Shown: piece by piece, positions 13,696 to 58,156 of the stretch
Position numbering within the stretch: position 1 is the stretch's first letter
Layout of the letters: each line of letters starts with the position of its first letter
IMG/VR virus record: IMGVR_UViG_3300043427_002233
Coordinates: 6,203 to 70,202 of that record
Origin: a virus
DNA: 64,000 bases
Direction: 5' to 3' (one strand)
Made by a program: the position numbers and the translations under genes
The notes under the pieces: generated by a model
What the model was told of the DNA's origin: nothing
What the model saw: the letters and a program-made list of their open reading frames with translations, nothing else
Databases searched by the model: none

Positions 13696-13837
13696 ATCCC
13701 GTGGCAACTTAGTCTCATTGTTATCTGACGACAACGAATACGAATACTATGACTCTATCCGAATCAACAAGGTATCTTTGAAAGGAGACCGCCATGAGAA
13801 ACTTGCTCGACAAGAACTACGTAATACCGCCAAATAA
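13685..13837 (+). CDS. Small hypothetical protein (50 aa)
   Basis: AGGAGGT SD; MKIKSRGNLV...; overlaps the next gene by 44 bp. Confidence 0.5.
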   Translation: MKIKSRGNLVSLLSDDNEYEYYDSIRINKVSLKGDRHEKLARQELRNTAK

Positions 13838-27579: not shown

Positions 27580-27813
27580 CTAGATCTCCTTTAATATTGT
27601 TAGATCTTTACGATTGATAAACCCATGTCTATTAGCTAACACCATGAGTATACGATGTGATCTTTTGTTCTCATTGTATTCTCCAGTCTTAACTAAACGG
27701 ATAGCCTGTCTTATGTTGGATTGGAAGATTTCTTCTTTGCTTCTTAAACGTTTACGTTTTTTTCGCAAGGTAATTCTACTAATCTTACTATCTAAGAGGG
27801 CGTTTAAATCCAT
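27580..27813 (-). CDS. Small basic protein, leaderless first gene of the chaperonin operon
   Basis: ATG 6 nt after TGtTATAAT (27820-27825). Confidence 0.65.
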   Translation of the reverse strand: MDLNALLDSKISRITLRKKRKRLRSKEEIFQSNIRQAIRLVKTGEYNENKRSHRILMVLANRHGFINRKDLTILKEI

Positions 27814-27859: not shown

Positions 27860-28600
27860 ATGTCCAAAACCGAAAGAATATTTCAACCTTTAGTCATACA
27901 GGATAAGCAAGAGTTTCTATCCTTGCTTAAATCCGGTAAACTTAAGTACTCTAAATATAATATCTTAAACGAACAACAAAAGCTATTCGTTGAGTTAGTT
28001 GTGTTTGGTGGTTACTCCGGTGAGCAGGCTATGAAAGCTATAGATCCTGAGATCCGTAACCCTAAACTCTTAGCTAACCGAATGGCATCTGATCCGGATG
28101 TGGCCACAACACTTGAAGAGTTGTCTGCTCAGAAGGATAAGAAGTTTATGACTGAGCTATCAGAGGCTCGTGAACTCGCGCTCTCTAAGCTTATGTTCAT
28201 TATGTCTACTACTAAAGACGAAGCATTAGCTGCGGCTGCTGCTAAGACAATCATTGATGCATCTGGCAAAGCTGTTGCTGCTAACGCTAAGAAAGATGAA
28301 GGTGCTGTTGGCCAAGTTAAATTCTCTATTCAAGTTGAGAATGCCTATATGGGTACACAGCCACCGCTAAAAGCTAAAGAAGATCCAGTTATCATAACGA
28401 TTGATGATCAGGAAGCTTCTCGTGTTAAACAAGAAACTCAAGCCGAACTTCAAGAAGTTAAGGCTAAGGTTCGTGAACAAGAAGAGTTACTTAATACTAC
28501 CAAGCAAGCTAACTCTAACCTTCCTGTGAACCCAGATACTGGTTTACCATACACGATCTCTTACGAAGGCGTTAACTCCTATGAAAAAGATGATAACTAA
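27860..28600 (+). CDS. terS: Probable terminase small subunit
   Basis: LNEQQKLFVELVV..GYSGEQAMKA...LANRMASDPDVATTLEEL resembles the TerS N-terminal HTH, followed by oligomerisation helices; leaderless start MSKTER. Confidence 0.6.
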   Translation: MSKTERIFQPLVIQDKQEFLSLLKSGKLKYSKYNILNEQQKLFVELVVFGGYSGEQAMKAIDPEIRNPKLLANRMASDPDVATTLEELSAQKDKKFMTELSEARELALSKLMFIMSTTKDEALAAAAAKTIIDASGKAVAANAKKDEGAVGQVKFSIQVENAYMGTQPPLKAKEDPVIITIDDQEASRVKQETQAELQEVKAKVREQEELLNTTKQANSNLPVNPDTGLPYTISYEGVNSYEKDDN

Positions 28601-28856
28601 AGCCAAGCTGCTTCTTAAGAATCTATTCTTAACGAAAGAAGGCTGGCTATCATGGATCATAGCTAATGTTATTACGTCACTTCCGTGGGCACTACCTTTA
28701 ATCTATGGATTTATTTTTAAAGATGCTAATGCATATGTAATCGCTGCATCTATTTGGACTTTTGTGATGCTACCCATTACACCCTTCTGGGTCTTTAACG
28801 TTTTGATTGCAACATTCTTTGTACAAAAAGTATTTAAAATAAAAAACCCACAGTGA
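28581..28856 (+). CDS. Small membrane protein
   Basis: 2-3 hydrophobic segments in 91 aa. Confidence 0.65.
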   Translation: MKKMITKAKLLLKNLFLTKEGWLSWIIANVITSLPWALPLIYGFIFKDANAYVIAASIWTFVMLPITPFWVFNVLIATFFVQKVFKIKNPQ

Positions 28857-28964
28857 AGGGGGAGACACTGTGGATCTTTTGAAAGGAGGGGCCATGGAAA
28901 TGAATTAACCATGGCTCCCTAGAAAGGAGGTATAGGGGAGAGGTCGCGTCTCTAACCCTACACC
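28838..28964 (-). ncRNA. Candidate anti-Shine-Dalgarno small RNA (~125 nt, three hairpins)
   Basis: Promoter TTGACT-16-TATAAT with TG extension (28968-28995); three stems with G-U pairs on the minus strand; ACCUCCUUUCUA, CCCUCCUUUC and loop UCUCCCCCUU; ends in a stem plus U6. Confidence 0.7.
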
Positions 28965-28981
28965 ATTATTATAACATGTCT

Positions 28982-30895
28982 TTATTTTAAGTCAATACCT
29001 AATTCGTTCTTAACATTCGTAACAAAGTTTGTTTGATTTAATGCGTGTCTAAGTGAGTCTGCGCACCATTTTTTATAACTTGAGTACGCAACGTCTTCAG
29101 ACATAATTTTAATATCAGTTGGATCTGCTTTCCATTTTTCGTGGAACCAAGACAATACAGATGAGTTATCAATCTTATATTGTTCCATCATATCAACAAC
29201 TTCTTTAGGTGTCGTAAACTCTTTTGTAGTTTTTAATAGACGATGAATTGCGACTACTGCTTTATAGGCTGTATAATCTAATGCTTCTTGTTCCATAAGC
29301 TTTCTTTTAAAGTTCATACCTTCTACTCTACTAACGGCTGTTAAGTCTGCAGTAAATGGTATGATAGTTAACCTTCTATAGAACCCGTATGATTGATCTG
29401 GAGTTCTTGGAAGTTTGTTAGCTGCAAAGAACATCGTGGCAAATAATGATTTAGAATAAGCATCTTTATATTTTTGCTCAACCATAATTTCTTCACCAGA
29501 TATAATTGACTTTACGATATCGCTATCATTTAAAGGTGCGCTACTTATATCACCTGCTAATGATGCAAGTTTATTGTTCATAGCTGATGCTCTAAAGTTA
29601 TTTGCAAGATCTTTAAATGCTATGGCTGTAGTATTTTCTCTACCTAATACTTCTTTAATAAGATCTAAGAATGTTGATTTACCATTACGTCCTGAACCCA
29701 CTAACAAGAATGCTTTTTGTAGTTCGTTTGTTTTTAACATTGAATATCCAATGGCTTCATATAATAACTGTTCGATACTTTGATTACCCTTAGTGGCTGT
29801 ATGAAAGAATTCATCGACAGTTTGAGATTTAGCATTTGGATTATAGTTAGCATTGATTTGTATTGATTCTAAACATTCTGGATTCATCGGTTTGAACTCT
29901 AGTGTATTAACATCTAGGATTCCGTTTTTAAATACAACTGTGTATGGGTTCTCATTGAACTTAACAGACTCATCGAATAAATATTGTTCAACGTATTTTA
30001 ATGTTTCATCTTTTTGATAGTTTTTTAAACTGGGTATTAATTTAGTCATGTAACCCAACAAATAATCTCTGTCTGTAGAATAAACTTTTTTTCGTTCGTT
30101 ATAAAAGTAAAGGTCTTTTGTCGTGCTATCTCTTTTAACATAGCAATTCTTAATAACATAATTGCCTAACCGATCATGGAAGAATTTGTCTTTGTCGACA
30201 AACTGTTTTACTAATTGTTCTTCACTTATTCTTAATACGTTTTCTAATTCAATATCTGCTAACGGGACTTGACAAAACTCCTGATTAACCATCTGCACCA
30301 CTTCATTCTGCATGATGGTACTAATACCTAATGCTTTTAGCTTACTTAATATGTCTATTAATACTACGTTTACATTGCTTTGTATTGGAAGTTTAATACC
30401 ATCTACAATATTGTTTGAGATCTTTCTTGTTGGTAATAACCATACAGGAAGTGAACTTATGAATTCACCATACTCAATCTTATATTGTGATAGTAAACTT
30501 GATACGCTATTCGGAACTCTGAATGGTAGTGTGATAACTCTTCCCGCTCCATATGTATTTGCATTGATACCGCAAGCTAATCGGTTAACAGTTGTTGTTC
30601 TATTGAAGTCTGACTTACAGACAATGTATAGTATCTTATCGTTTTTAGTGAAGACAAAGACCGGTTCGTTTTTAGAAATAATTACTGGCAGTATGTTTAC
30701 TTCTTCTGTTTCTATTACCAAGTAACCATGAGGAATAACCCATGACACTTCAAGTGTCGGATCTGAACCAAGATTCTTAACCAATGCACCGTTTGCTTTG
30801 AGTGGCGGTTGGCCAACTCTAGAAACTACGTACATAGATTCTTCTTGACTGTTTACGATGTTGTTGAAATCTCTAAAGTTCATTTTCCTCCTCAC
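28982..30895 (-). CDS. P4/D5-family SF3 helicase with degenerate N-terminal primase domain
   Basis: Walker A GSGRNGKST, LAGDI, FAANKLP, GFYRRL; D5_N VFKNGILD. Confidence 0.85.
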   Translation of the reverse strand: MRRKMNFRDFNNIVNSQEESMYVVSRVGQPPLKANGALVKNLGSDPTLEVSWVIPHGYLVIETEEVNILPVIISKNEPVFVFTKNDKILYIVCKSDFNRTTTVNRLACGINANTYGAGRVITLPFRVPNSVSSLLSQYKIEYGEFISSLPVWLLPTRKISNNIVDGIKLPIQSNVNVVLIDILSKLKALGISTIMQNEVVQMVNQEFCQVPLADIELENVLRISEEQLVKQFVDKDKFFHDRLGNYVIKNCYVKRDSTTKDLYFYNERKKVYSTDRDYLLGYMTKLIPSLKNYQKDETLKYVEQYLFDESVKFNENPYTVVFKNGILDVNTLEFKPMNPECLESIQINANYNPNAKSQTVDEFFHTATKGNQSIEQLLYEAIGYSMLKTNELQKAFLLVGSGRNGKSTFLDLIKEVLGRENTTAIAFKDLANNFRASAMNNKLASLAGDISSAPLNDSDIVKSIISGEEIMVEQKYKDAYSKSLFATMFFAANKLPRTPDQSYGFYRRLTIIPFTADLTAVSRVEGMNFKRKLMEQEALDYTAYKAVVAIHRLLKTTKEFTTPKEVVDMMEQYKIDNSSVLSWFHEKWKADPTDIKIMSEDVAYSSYKKWCADSLRHALNQTNFVTNVKNELGIDLK

Positions 30896-30916
30896 TTTCC
30901 TTAACGACGATTACGC

Positions 30917-33045: not shown

Positions 33046-33143
33046 GTAATTTTCCTCCTGTGTATTTTAATTAGCGAACAATGATAGGCAATACTTCTCA
33101 AAAAAAATGCGATGTTATCGATACATTTCTCCTTTCTGTAAAT

Positions 33144-56227: not shown

Positions 56228-58156
56228 TTACCGCTGTTTCATTGCATTCTTGGCTGCTTGTAAGTTTGCCGGATTCATCTGTTGCGACTGTGATTGTTCG
56301 CTTGATAACTTCTCATGCTGTTCAATGTGCATAGCTAGCGCATCCATTAACTGTTTATACAGTTCAGGATTTTCTTCTTCAAGCTTTCTTACCGCCGGAG
56401 AGATTCGGAATAAGTTGTGCTCAACTAAGTGCTGGCCATGATTATGGAATTTCTCAACAGTTGGAACTTCCATCTTGTGCATGATCTTAGCATTTTCTTC
56501 ATCGACCAAGTCGTGAGTTGATCTTTCCAGAGGATCTAATGTATCTTGGAGATAAGTAGCTCTCATAGAATTAAGAACTTCTAACTTGGCAATGTAGGAC
56601 ATACCAGAGTTTGGGGCGAACATTCCTAGCCCCATAGCCTGTTGCATCTTCTTGTCGATTGTTTGATCGCTTTGCATCAGGAATTCCCTATTTACAATAG
56701 CGAGGTTCTCGGCATAGATACCTTTTAGACTATATTGATAAGCCTTTAAATCGGCTTTAGCAACCTTAAGTTTTTCAAACAAGACTTCTTCTCTGTCTTG
56801 TTCTAGATAGACAACTTTCTTAAAGACTTTAATTAAAGCTTCAGAAAGATTATCTAATGCGTTGACAAGTTTATTCTCATCAGATTCTGACATCTTGTCA
56901 ACAACTCCGTCAGTTCTTAAATTACCACGGCTTGCACCATAGGCTGTGATCTGAGATAATCCAGCTGCTACAAGCATATCATCTTCTAAAGTTCTGAGAT
57001 AATTAATAAATTCTGCAGAAAGTTTATCTTTTTGCACAGCAACAGGTTGTCTAGCATTTCTCTTTAAGCCAATTAGTTTACCAGGTTTAGTAGAAAAACT
57101 GTTCTTGTTGATTAAAGAACCTTCCCAATAATACATTTGTCCGATCGCAATATGGTTAACATATTCTAAGTATCTGTTCTTAACCGCGTTATACGTTTCT
57201 TGAATCGGAATAATTTGTTGATAAACGGTAACCCCGACAGTATGATGAGGTACAGTTTGTAAAGCAACAAAGTCGAAAGGAATCTTTCTTTGACCGTTCA
57301 CACCATTAGCAAATGGTAGAACATCGTCCCAAAGCACCTTTTCGTTGCAAATAATAATATACCTACCCTTAGGATATAATGCATCAGGCTTCTTATAATA
57401 TTCAAAGATATAAGCATATTCAATATCAGTTGATGCGAGATAACCTATATCAGAATACTTAGGATACGTAGGTAAATTGAATTCAGTGATGTCTTCTTTT
57501 TGTGCGTCAAAACCCCAACGTTTCTTAATATATTCCAACGGGAACGGTCTACGATGGACGAGTTCATTAACTTCATCCATAGATTCAACATGCCAGTTAT
57601 TAATAAAAACTTCATGTAAAGGTACAGCTAAAATAAATACTTTACCTTCTTTAATAGTAATATGGCCCTTTTCGCCACTACCTGTTTCAATATCTACTTG
57701 TGCAATTTCATCACCATCAGACCAATCGATACCAGTCTTAAACCATTCAAGACCATAGACATCAGCGTGTTTTACAGCTAAGTTAAATTTATCTTTAAAG
57801 TTAGATGTATTAATAAACTTGTTAATAAAGTTGTTAACTTTTCTTGAGTTCTCAATTTCTTTAGCAGAATTAGAAATAGGCTTCATGCCAGGGATTGGCA
57901 TGTTTTGAGTAAGGATTCCATAACGAGTTAAATAGATAGGAAGAATACGATTAAAGATTTTCTTTTCAGTATAGATTGAAGGATCAACTTGTTTGTCTTC
58001 GATCGTAAGAGTTTTGTTATTAATCTTCTTATTCTGACGACCTTTAATAAATTCATTATTATATTTACCTTGTGCAACAAAAGGACGAAGATGCGTCGTA
58101 CTATCATCTACGAAGTTCCTAATATAAGTTGTAATTGATCTAGGTGGTTTAGGCAC
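56228..58156 (-). CDS. Portal protein (P22-like size)
   Basis: 642 aa after terminase; FNRILP, IIPIQETYN, HNHGQHLVEH...MHIEQH. Confidence 0.8.
   Translation of the reverse strand: MPKPPRSITTYIRNFVDDSTTHLRPFVAQGKYNNEFIKGRQNKKINNKTLTIEDKQVDPSIYTEKKIFNRILPIYLTRYGILTQNMPIPGMKPISNSAKEIENSRKVNNFINKFINTSNFKDKFNLAVKHADVYGLEWFKTGIDWSDGDEIAQVDIETGSGEKGHITIKEGKVFILAVPLHEVFINNWHVESMDEVNELVHRRPFPLEYIKKRWGFDAQKEDITEFNLPTYPKYSDIGYLASTDIEYAYIFEYYKKPDALYPKGRYIIICNEKVLWDDVLPFANGVNGQRKIPFDFVALQTVPHHTVGVTVYQQIIPIQETYNAVKNRYLEYVNHIAIGQMYYWEGSLINKNSFSTKPGKLIGLKRNARQPVAVQKDKLSAEFINYLRTLEDDMLVAAGLSQITAYGASRGNLRTDGVVDKMSESDENKLVNALDNLSEALIKVFKKVVYLEQDREEVLFEKLKVAKADLKAYQYSLKGIYAENLAIVNREFLMQSDQTIDKKMQQAMGLGMFAPNSGMSYIAKLEVLNSMRATYLQDTLDPLERSTHDLVDEENAKIMHKMEVPTVEKFHNHGQHLVEHNLFRISPAVRKLEEENPELYKQLMDALAMHIEQHEKLSSEQSQSQQMNPANLQAAKNAMKQR

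What the first reader, a model, noticed from the sequence alone, without database searches (positions are those of the whole stretch)
28838..28995. Phage sRNA that mimics the 16S rRNA anti-Shine-Dalgarno tail
Seen: an independent minus-strand unit with TTGACT-16-TATAAT (TG-extended), hairpin 1, ACCUCCUUUCUA, hairpin 2, CCCUCCUUUCAAAAGAU, then a terminator hairpin with loop UCUCCCCCUU and U6. G-U pairs fix the strand. Established: Bacillota 16S rRNA ends ...CACCUCCUUUCU(A), and C-rich sRNAs such as S. aureus RNAIII and RsaE block SD sequences. Inference: a multivalent anti-SD RNA that silences SD-led host or early phage mRNAs. The second motif is complementary over 14 nt, with one bulge, to the RBS of the early HExxH gene (ATCTTTGAAAGGAG, 13774-13787). 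GAAAGGAG also occurs at about 15778 and 33129-33137.
Basis: partly seen in the sequence, partly recalled or inferred. Interest (0 to 1): 0.85.

Follow-up and report, generated by a model that had tools for sequence, protein, structure and literature searches.

The report
Phage small RNA with anti-Shine-Dalgarno seed
An uncultured freshwater phage and its relatives keep a small non-coding RNA gene after their primase gene; its exposed stretch copies the ribosome's mRNA-docking tail, so it probably blocks ribosome-binding sites, as known bacterial small RNAs do.

Summary
At 28838-28995(-) there is an 11/12 TG-extended promoter, three hairpins, an exposed ACCUCCUUUCUA, a CU-rich terminator loop and a U-tract.

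Comparative evidence supports a real small-RNA gene.
- Promoter plus an ACCUCC within 75 nt occurs after the primase gene in 11 of 16 loci with 46-100% primase identity.
- In the six closest RNAs ACCUCC is 100% identical, while stem arms are 31-56% identical.
- The motif is unpaired with P >= 0.91.
- Unpaired letters are 80% C/U and 3% G.

No Rfam family matches. The design is that of LhrC, csRNA and SprX-type sRNAs that block Shine-Dalgarno sites. The seed equals the last 11 nt of the Bacillus subtilis 16S tail.

Not supported:
- Motif 2 is mostly paired and is absent from a relative.
- The HExxH target depends on stem letters and is not kept in that relative.
- No transcript was seen: the only RNA run does not cover the unit.
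- Global 16S mimicry is untested.

This scan has noted similar CU-rich phage sRNAs on other DNA. Verdict: new member of a known kind.

The parts
28990..28995 (-). -35 hexamer TTGACT; overlaps the last codons of the primase gene
   Evidence: a TTGxxx hexamer 16-18 nt before a TAxxxT hexamer was found in 20 of 24 distinct loci checked
28968..28976 (-). TG-extended -10 (TGtTATAAT); predicted start near 28961
   Evidence: the -10 lies after the primase stop, in non-coding DNA, and is kept in relatives
28931..28962 (-). 5'-terminal hairpin 1, beginning at the predicted transcript start
   Evidence: a hairpin ends 0-6 nt before ACCUCC in all 6 core RNAs, with 2-3 pair types at 5 of 6 base positions
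28920..28931 (-). Exposed seed ACCUCCUUUCUA, equal to the last 11 nt of the B. subtilis 16S 3' tail plus A
   Evidence: P(unpaired) 0.99-1.00; ACCUCC identical in 6 of 6 core RNAs and present in 11 of 16 loci with >=46% primase identity; tail sequence from PMC5732282
28887..28920 (-). Hairpin 2
   Evidence: a second hairpin with other letters is present in L002, L027, L029 and L030
28874..28890 (-). Motif 2, CCCUCCUUUCAAAAGAU; only CCUUUC (28886-28881) is predicted to be exposed
   Evidence: not present at this place in L002
28838..28880 (-). Intrinsic terminator: stem 28880-28841, CU-rich loop UCUCCCCCUU 28865-28856, U-tract. Probably also ends the convergent + strand operon, where it is followed by ATCTTTTG
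   Evidence: CU-rich terminator loops in L002, L027, L029 and L030
28982..30895 (-). Upstream neighbour: D5_N/DUF5906 primase-helicase gene (likely start 30883)
   Evidence: phrog_864 DNA primase, E 3e-94
28581..28856 (+). Convergent 91-aa membrane-protein gene; its last 19 nt overlap the RNA's 3' end. Not linked to the RNA, since L004 has the RNA but not this gene
13769..13796 (+). Translation initiation region of the 251-aa HExxH gene: best predicted pairing partner in this phage, not confirmed as conserved

Best explanation
This is a separately transcribed, stable small RNA gene of about 120-124 nt, belonging to an uncatalogued family in a large group of uncultured phages of roughly 70-79 kb.

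Proposed course of events:
1. Host RNA polymerase starts at a strong TG-extended sigma-A-type promoter that overlaps the end of the primase gene.
2. The RNA begins with a protective 5' hairpin and ends at an intrinsic terminator.
3. Between the hairpins it displays ACCUCCUUUCU(A) fully single-stranded. It displays further C/U-rich, G-free tracts in loops.
4. These tracts most likely pair with Shine-Dalgarno regions of mRNAs and keep 30S subunits off them, as LhrC, RsaE/RoxS, csRNAs and phage-borne SprX do.
5. The likeliest targets are initiation regions with long SDs of the GAAAGGAGG type, which are enriched in the plus-strand block at 11.7-20.5 kb.

Shown by computation: promoter, fold, conservation and exposure of the seed.

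Inferred: transcription, pairing, repression and target identity.

In this reading the likeness to the 16S tail follows from targeting SDs. It is not a separate mechanism.
For: Sequence and fold:
- The promoter scores 11 of 12 with TG.
- The fold is -49 kcal/mol, z = -6.4. In L002 it is -43.7 kcal/mol, z = -7.0, against -38.6 on the other strand.

Conservation:
- 16 distinct loci have 46-100% primase identity and readable downstream DNA: the window, L002, L003, L004, L009, L027-L031, L033-L037 and L044.
- 11 of them have ACCUCC within 75 nt of a -10 box: the window, L002, L004, L027-L031, L033, L034 and L037.
- In a 5-sequence MAFFT alignment the only contiguous invariant block is ACCTCCTT.
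- With the six core RNAs anchored on structure, ACCUCC is 100% identical and the 11-mer 88%. Hairpin-1 arms are 54-56% and terminator arms 31-41% identical, with 2-3 different standard pair types at 5 of 6 hairpin-1 positions.

Exposure and composition:
- The seed is unpaired with P >= 0.91 in the six core RNAs and in L004.
- Unpaired letters of the six core RNAs: C 111, U 117, A 50, G 8, of 286. Paired letters are 29% G.
- Each core RNA has two to four C-rich pyrimidine tracts, and at least two per RNA are largely unpaired.
- Hairpin 1 starts at the predicted +1 in all six.

Targets:
- 7 of 20 initiation regions in the plus block match the seed over at least 8 contiguous nt, against 8 of 54 elsewhere. 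One-sided Mann-Whitney p = 0.02.

Precedents, read as passages:
- PMC4132741: three redundant CU-rich sites, in loop A, the single strand and the terminator loop.
- PMC3091779: anti-SD and anti-AUG in the unpaired region between two stem-loops.
- PMC4005690: SprX is encoded by converting phages, and its C-rich loop blocks an RBS.
Against: - No transcript evidence. The only RNA run found (X20, contigs) covers 30641-30900 alone.
- The seed matches a large share of the phage's own SDs, including late genes such as 53924 and 55551. Specificity is therefore unexplained.
- With flanks shuffled around the core, the best seed-target energies are not exceptional: 209 of 300 shuffles do as well for motif 1, and 238 of 300 for the exposed part of motif 2.
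- The one outstanding target needs stem opening and is not kept in L002's phage.
- 5 of the 16 loci lack the motif: L003, L009, L035, L036 and L044.
- All 9 loci of the 40-42% clade lack it. Eight of these carry another RNA at the slot and L107 has no promoter by my scan.
- RNAalifold found no consensus pairs on the sequence-based alignment. The structural comparison therefore rests on separate folds.
- In L031, L033, L034 and L037 the seed is only 33-66% unpaired.
Confidence: 0.55

Rival explanations
1. A true 16S-tail mimic with a global or decoy role. The RNA, made in large amounts, either competes with 30S subunits for SD-led mRNAs in general while leaderless phage messages escape, or it soaks up a protein or nuclease that recognises the 16S 3' tail.
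For: - The seed equals the last 11 nt of the B. subtilis tail, and 13 nt in L002.
- It follows a hairpin directly, as the tail follows helix 45 (that anatomy is recalled).
- The promoter is very strong.
One search shows such boxes directly before the ATGs at 27813(-) and 53861(-).
Against: - Late and structural genes carry strong AGGAGG SDs, so a global block would hit the phage itself.
- The letter 5' of ACCUCC is the 16S letter C in only 4 of 11 RNAs, and the 3' extension decays to UG or GA in L034 and L037.
- No SSU rRNA match was found in the unit at E <= 10.
- No partner protein is known.
Confidence: 0.12
2. No trans function. The region is the shared bidirectional terminator and 3' untranslated region of the primase operon and the convergent operon, with hairpins that stabilise 3' ends and a promoter that matters little.
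For: - The unit lies between convergent genes.
- The terminator stem also folds on the + strand and is followed by ATCTTTTG.
- The -35 box overlaps conserved C-terminal codons of the primase.
Against: - The -10 box lies in non-coding DNA and is kept at 16-18 nt spacing in 20 of 24 loci.
- A terminator role does not explain an invariant, exposed ACCUCC amid freely changing stems.
- It also does not explain the near-absence of G from unpaired letters.
Confidence: 0.1
3. A cis-acting transcript. It acts as antisense or transcriptional interference against read-through from the convergent 249-aa/91-aa operon, or its transcription activates a replication origin next to the primase gene.
For: - The RNA's 3' end overlaps the last 19 nt of the 91-aa gene.
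- Origins often lie next to primase-helicase genes (recalled).
- The promoter slot is kept even where the RNA differs, as in the 40-42% clade.
Against: - The overlap is only the terminator.
- L004 keeps the RNA without the 91-aa gene.
- Neither role needs a conserved anti-SD stretch.
- The unit itself shows no repeated sequence, as read (no repeat search was run).
Confidence: 0.1
4. The conserved letters serve the other strand, as a Shine-Dalgarno site (AGAAAGGAGGT) for a small + strand gene.
For: On the + strand, GAAAGGAGG is followed after 4 nt by ATG GAA ATG AAT TAA, a 4-codon frame (read).
Against: - No start codon follows the conserved site at a usable distance in the window, L002, L027, L029 or L030. 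Only L028 has a 14-codon frame.
- The 4-codon frame belongs to motif 2, which L002 lacks.
- The + strand fold is less stable.
Confidence: 0.03

Closest known systems
LhrC1-5 of Listeria monocytogenes (PMC4132741, abstract and passages read)
   Same: - A small RNA of low-GC Gram-positive type with redundant CU-rich sites in a 5' hairpin loop, in the single strand between hairpins, and in the terminator loop.
- These sites bind the SD region and block translation.
- The RNA is poor in G.
- The phage RNAs show the same three locations.
   Different: - No sequence or structure match to any Rfam model.
- The central site here is ACCUCCUUUCU, the full anti-SD, rather than UCCC.
- It is phage-borne and single-copy, behind a constitutive-looking promoter rather than LisRK control.
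- In the window itself the hairpin-1 CU tract lies in the stem arm, not the loop.
csRNAs (CiaR-dependent sRNAs) of streptococci (PMC3091779, passages read)
   Same: - Two stem-loops flank an unpaired region that carries an anti-SD.
- They are proposed to block translation initiation regions.
   Different: - csRNAs pair anti-SD with anti-AUG in the exposed region. Here a CAU precedes only motif 2 and sits in the hairpin-2 stem.
- No Rfam match.
- Different promoter type (the CiaR box is recalled, not tested).
SprX/RsaOR of Staphylococcus aureus converting phages (PMC4005690, passages read), and the UCCC-motif sRNAs RsaE, RNAIII, SprD and FsrA as named in PMC4132741
   Same: Phage-encoded sRNA whose C-rich exposed loop pairs with a ribosome-binding site and blocks ribosome loading.
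   Different: - Unrelated sequence.
- SprX sits in temperate converting phages and regulates host genes.
- Here the lifestyle, host and targets are unknown.
3' tail of Bacillota 16S rRNA, GAUCACCUCCUUUCU (PMC5732282, passages read)
   Same: Identical over the last 11 nt in the window, L027 and L030, and over 13 nt in L002. The stretch is single-stranded and follows a hairpin.
   Different: - Not a captured rRNA piece: there is no SSU match.
- The hairpin has other letters and a C-rich loop.
- The motif is internal, not a 3' end.

Membership tests
Any Rfam 15 family (including LhrC, RsaE, csRNA-type models and SSU rRNA) | Match to the family covariance model | tested here: not met
   0 matches at gathering score in the whole window. 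In 28700-29100 at E <= 10 there are only 9 chance-level hits, the best at 19.7 bits against a 33-bit cut-off, and none to these families. Relatives L003-L009 gave nothing at this slot.
CU-rich, SD-blocking trans-acting sRNAs of low-GC Gram-positives (functional class) | Own promoter and intrinsic terminator | tested here: met
   Promoter 11 of 12 with TG; a GC stem followed by U6; both are kept in relatives.
CU-rich, SD-blocking trans-acting sRNAs of low-GC Gram-positives (functional class) | C/U-rich, G-poor seed exposed in loops or single strands and complementary to SD | tested here: met
   P(unpaired) >= 0.91 for the seed in the six core RNAs; 8 G among 286 unpaired letters; contiguous matches of 8-10 nt to 15 of 74 grouped initiation regions.
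CU-rich, SD-blocking trans-acting sRNAs of low-GC Gram-positives (functional class) | The RNA is made | tested here: inconclusive
   One RNA run was found. Its contigs cover only 30641-30900. Contigs cannot show absence.
CU-rich, SD-blocking trans-acting sRNAs of low-GC Gram-positives (functional class) | Represses translation of defined targets through the seed | not testable with these tools
   Only predictions are available. The best target is not conserved.
LhrC family | Three redundant CU-rich sites: loop A, single strand, terminator loop | tested here: met
   All three are present in L027, L028, L029 and L030. The window and L002 have the single strand and the terminator loop only. This is a likeness of design, not homology.
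csRNA family | Anti-SD together with anti-start codon in the unpaired region between two stem-loops | tested here: not met
   No CAU lies next to the exposed seed. The CAU before motif 2 lies in the hairpin-2 stem.
Type I toxin-antitoxin antisense RNA | Long 3' overlap with a convergent small toxin mRNA, and co-occurrence with it | tested here: not met
   The overlap is limited to the terminator. The neighbour has 91 aa. L004 has the RNA without that gene.

The most novel reading that the evidence does not exclude
The RNA is a genuine mimic of the 16S 3' tail, made in bulk early in infection. It titrates SD sequences as a class (or a factor that reads the tail) and shifts translation towards leaderless, operon-leading phage messages. 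That would be an RNA-based translational take-over switch not described for any phage. My searches listed no paper whose title or abstract describes such a system.
Probability: 0.08. Interest if true: 0.85.

Novelty: new member of a known kind. Interest (0 to 1): 0.45.

Why it matters
It adds an uncatalogued small-RNA family, with a clear candidate seed, to a large and widespread group of uncultured phages. One search found 296 primase relatives at E <= 1e-30.

It also shows a fixed "sRNA slot" after the primase gene in which different RNAs have been exchanged between clades.

Phage-encoded SD-blocking RNAs may be a common and under-annotated layer of phage gene control. This scan has noted similar CU-rich RNAs in other phages.

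If the seed acts broadly, it would bear on how phages re-programme translation. If it acts narrowly, it gives a tractable sRNA-target pair for study.

Tried and rejected
Searches and steps that led nowhere:
- Near or distant DNA matches in the GenBank phage collection: none.
- Expression: the single RNA run (X20) did not cover the unit, so nothing follows from it. In DNA runs of 95-99% relatives, X5 shows at most 1 change across 28776-29044, against 19 in 620 nt of the neighbouring gene. Because 67 differences were not listed, I use this only as a weak hint.
- RNAalifold on a MAFFT alignment gave no pairs, because the stems are not alignable. No covariance model was built.
- Host 16S tail: the MAG holding L107 has only a partial 16S covering model positions 9-873, so the host tail is not known. 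The host is unknown. 'Bacilli' rests on the title of one MAG record for a 42% relative, on sigma-A-type promoters and on strong SDs.

Readings considered and rejected:
- HExxH gene as a conserved specific target.
- A + strand SD or mini-ORF, and a minus-strand 69-aa ORF at 28703-28912. The latter starts inside hairpin 2, runs through the terminator and is absent in L002.
- A type I toxin-antitoxin pair with the 91-aa gene.
- GAAAGGAG enrichment in the window is not significant: 5 matches against 1.9 expected, and 6 of 100 shuffles reach 5.
- ACCTCCTTTC with up to 1 mismatch: 4 matches against 3.25 expected.

Supplementary files of the papers were not opened.
Full report
**Context**

The window is bases 6203-70202 of a 70,202-base linear IMG/VR virus record, estimated 65% complete. 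Runs holding near-identical DNA are labelled freshwater metagenomes.

The unit lies in a 125-nt gap between two genes:
- The stop of a 637-aa D5_N/DUF5906 primase-helicase gene at 28982-30895, minus strand (Pfam; PHROG DNA primase, E 3e-94).
- The stop of a convergent 91-aa membrane-protein gene at 28581-28856, plus strand. That gene overlaps a 249/254-aa gene of no known family.

**Observation**

The promoter TTGACT-16-TGtTATAAT scores 11 of 12 and is the best of 11 promoter-like sites in 2.5 kb.

The 125-nt RNA folds into three hairpins at -49.0 kcal/mol, z = -6.4, and 0 of 200 shuffles fold as well. The complement folds to -46.5 kcal/mol, z = -4.2.

ACCUCCUUUCUA is fully unpaired (P 0.99-1.00) and the terminator loop UCUCCCCCUU likewise. 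Motif 2 exposes only CCUUUC.

**Relatives**

The primase has 296 relatives at E <= 1e-30, many on contigs of 70-79 kb. Scans of viral, metagenome and genome collections gave loci with 40-69% primase identity.

I read the DNA after the primase stop in every locus of at least 40% identity that had downstream sequence. L032 and L010 end at the contig edge and were dropped.

A TTGxxx-16/18-TAxxxT promoter was found at the primase stop in 20 of 24 distinct loci. It was not found in L003, L029, L036 and L107. L029 has a TG-extended -10 only.

Among the 16 loci with 46-100% identity:
- 11 carry ACCUCC within 75 nt of the -10: the window, L002, L004, L027, L028, L029, L030, L031, L033, L034 and L037.
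- 5 do not: L003, L009, L035, L036 and L044.

None of the 9 loci of the 40-42% clade does. Eight of them carry a different RNA at the same slot.

**Conservation pattern**

In the six closest RNAs (the window, L002, L027, L028 truncated by its contig end, L029 and L030) the plan is the same: 5' hairpin, exposed ACCUCCUU(UCU), second hairpin, and a terminator with a CU-rich loop.

A MAFFT alignment of five of them has one contiguous invariant block, ACCTCCTT. RNAalifold finds no consensus on it, because the stems cannot be aligned by sequence.

Anchoring on each RNA's own fold gives these figures:

| Element | Mean pairwise identity |
|---|---|
| ACCUCC | 100% |
| 11-mer seed | 88% |
| Hairpin-1 arms | 54-56% |
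| Terminator arms | 31-41% |

Five of six hairpin-1 positions show two or three different standard pairs. This comparison is fitted to separate folds, so it shows that a hairpin is kept with other letters. It is not formal covariation.

Unpaired letters of the six RNAs are C 111, U 117, A 50 and G 8, of 286. Paired letters are 29% G. Hairpin 1 begins at the predicted +1 in all six, which is typical of stable RNAs in Bacillota (that generalisation is recalled).

**What it is not**

- No Rfam family matches, including SSU rRNA, so it is not a captured rRNA fragment.
- The conserved letters do not serve a + strand gene. No start codon follows at a usable distance in 5 of 6 core loci.
- It is not tied to the 91-aa gene: L004 keeps the RNA with the 249-aa homolog converging directly.

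**Mechanism**

The design matches sRNAs that block SD sites:
- LhrC has three redundant CU-rich sites, in loop A, the single strand and the terminator loop (PMC4132741).
- csRNAs carry anti-SD sequences in the unpaired region between two stem-loops (PMC3091779).
- SprX is encoded by converting phages and blocks an RBS with a C-rich loop (PMC4005690).

The seed equals the last 11 nt of the mature B. subtilis 16S tail, GAUCACCUCCUUUCU (PMC5732282). In L002 the match is 13 nt.

I take the likeness to follow from pairing with SDs that themselves evolved to fit that tail. The letter before ACCUCC is the 16S letter in only 4 of 11 RNAs, and the 3' extension fades in distant members.

**Targets**

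The phage's genes carry strong AGGAGG-type SDs in early-looking and in structural blocks alike, so a global block would hurt the phage.

The plus-strand block at 11.7-20.5 kb matches the seed best. Seven of 20 initiation regions have at least 8 contiguous nt, against 8 of 54 elsewhere, p = 0.02.

The pairing spans both the SD and the AUG. It needs letters buried in hairpin 2 and in the terminator stem, however. With the exposed part alone, 238 of 300 shuffles do as well.

In L002's phage (G001) the RNA lacks motif 2, and the HExxH-VWA ortholog ranks 44th, 24th and 12th of 74. There the best partners are simply the longest SDs, with up to 14 contiguous pairs at 58017. No specific target is therefore established.

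**Expression**

Not shown. One metatranscriptome run held 5% of the query words, and its contigs cover 30641-30900 only.

One DNA variant (one contig of run X13) inserts a C, giving ACCCUCCUUUCU, which keeps the anti-SD.

**Novelty**

Searches for a phage RNA that mimics the anti-SD or 16S tail listed no paper whose title or abstract describes one (listings and abstracts only).

The kind of RNA is well known, and notes of this scan describe comparable CU-rich sRNAs in other phages (unchecked by me). I class it as a new member of a known kind, of moderate interest. The bold reading, a global tail mimic coupled to leaderless phage messages, gets about 8%.

Noticed in passing
L006:3961-4125, L008:3952-4110, L007:3967-4110, L038-L042 (same slot after the primase stop): The 40-42% primase clade keeps a 12/12 promoter (TTGACA-17/18-TATAAT) at the same slot but a different ~100-116-nt RNA. 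It has a 5' hairpin, then a conserved single strand (CUCU..GUU.AA.GGUCUUGU..UUGUG type) and a terminator, without ACCUCC. The slot is conserved while its RNA has been exchanged.
   Followed up: partly
L033:2129-2560: In this 53% relative the promoter and ACCUCC leader run on for about 400 nt and contain a tRNA-Met (CAU) gene at 2465-2541 (ARAGORN). sRNA-like leader and tRNA appear to share one transcription unit.
   Followed up: partly
L003:3940-4240: The 51% relative has no promoter by my scan. It has a long GC-rich, apparently structured non-coding stretch of about 300 nt after the primase gene, with no Rfam match.
   Followed up: no
L042:4150-4215 (opposite strand): Two further CU-rich words (CCCCUCCUUUC and UCACCUCCUUUC) with a promoter-like site lie on the strand opposite to the primase, just past the slot RNA. 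This may be a second, convergent CU-rich sRNA.
   Followed up: no
window 28928 (run X13): One contig of a 95-99% relative has an extra C, turning ACCUCCUUUCU into ACCCUCCUUUCU. The anti-SD core is kept.
   Followed up: no
These may be leaderless messages, including the operon convergent on the sRNA.
   Followed up: no
L005:5075-5162: Sub-threshold tmRNA-model hit (35.4 bits against a 47-bit cut-off). ARAGORN finds nothing there, so it is probably chance.
   Followed up: yes
L107:3930-4230: In the contig filed under a 'Bacilli bacterium' MAG, the stretch after the primase gene holds a structured non-coding region. It ends in a T-arm-like GGTTCGACTCC and contains CCACCTCC. It was not scanned for tRNA or tmRNA.
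   Followed up: no
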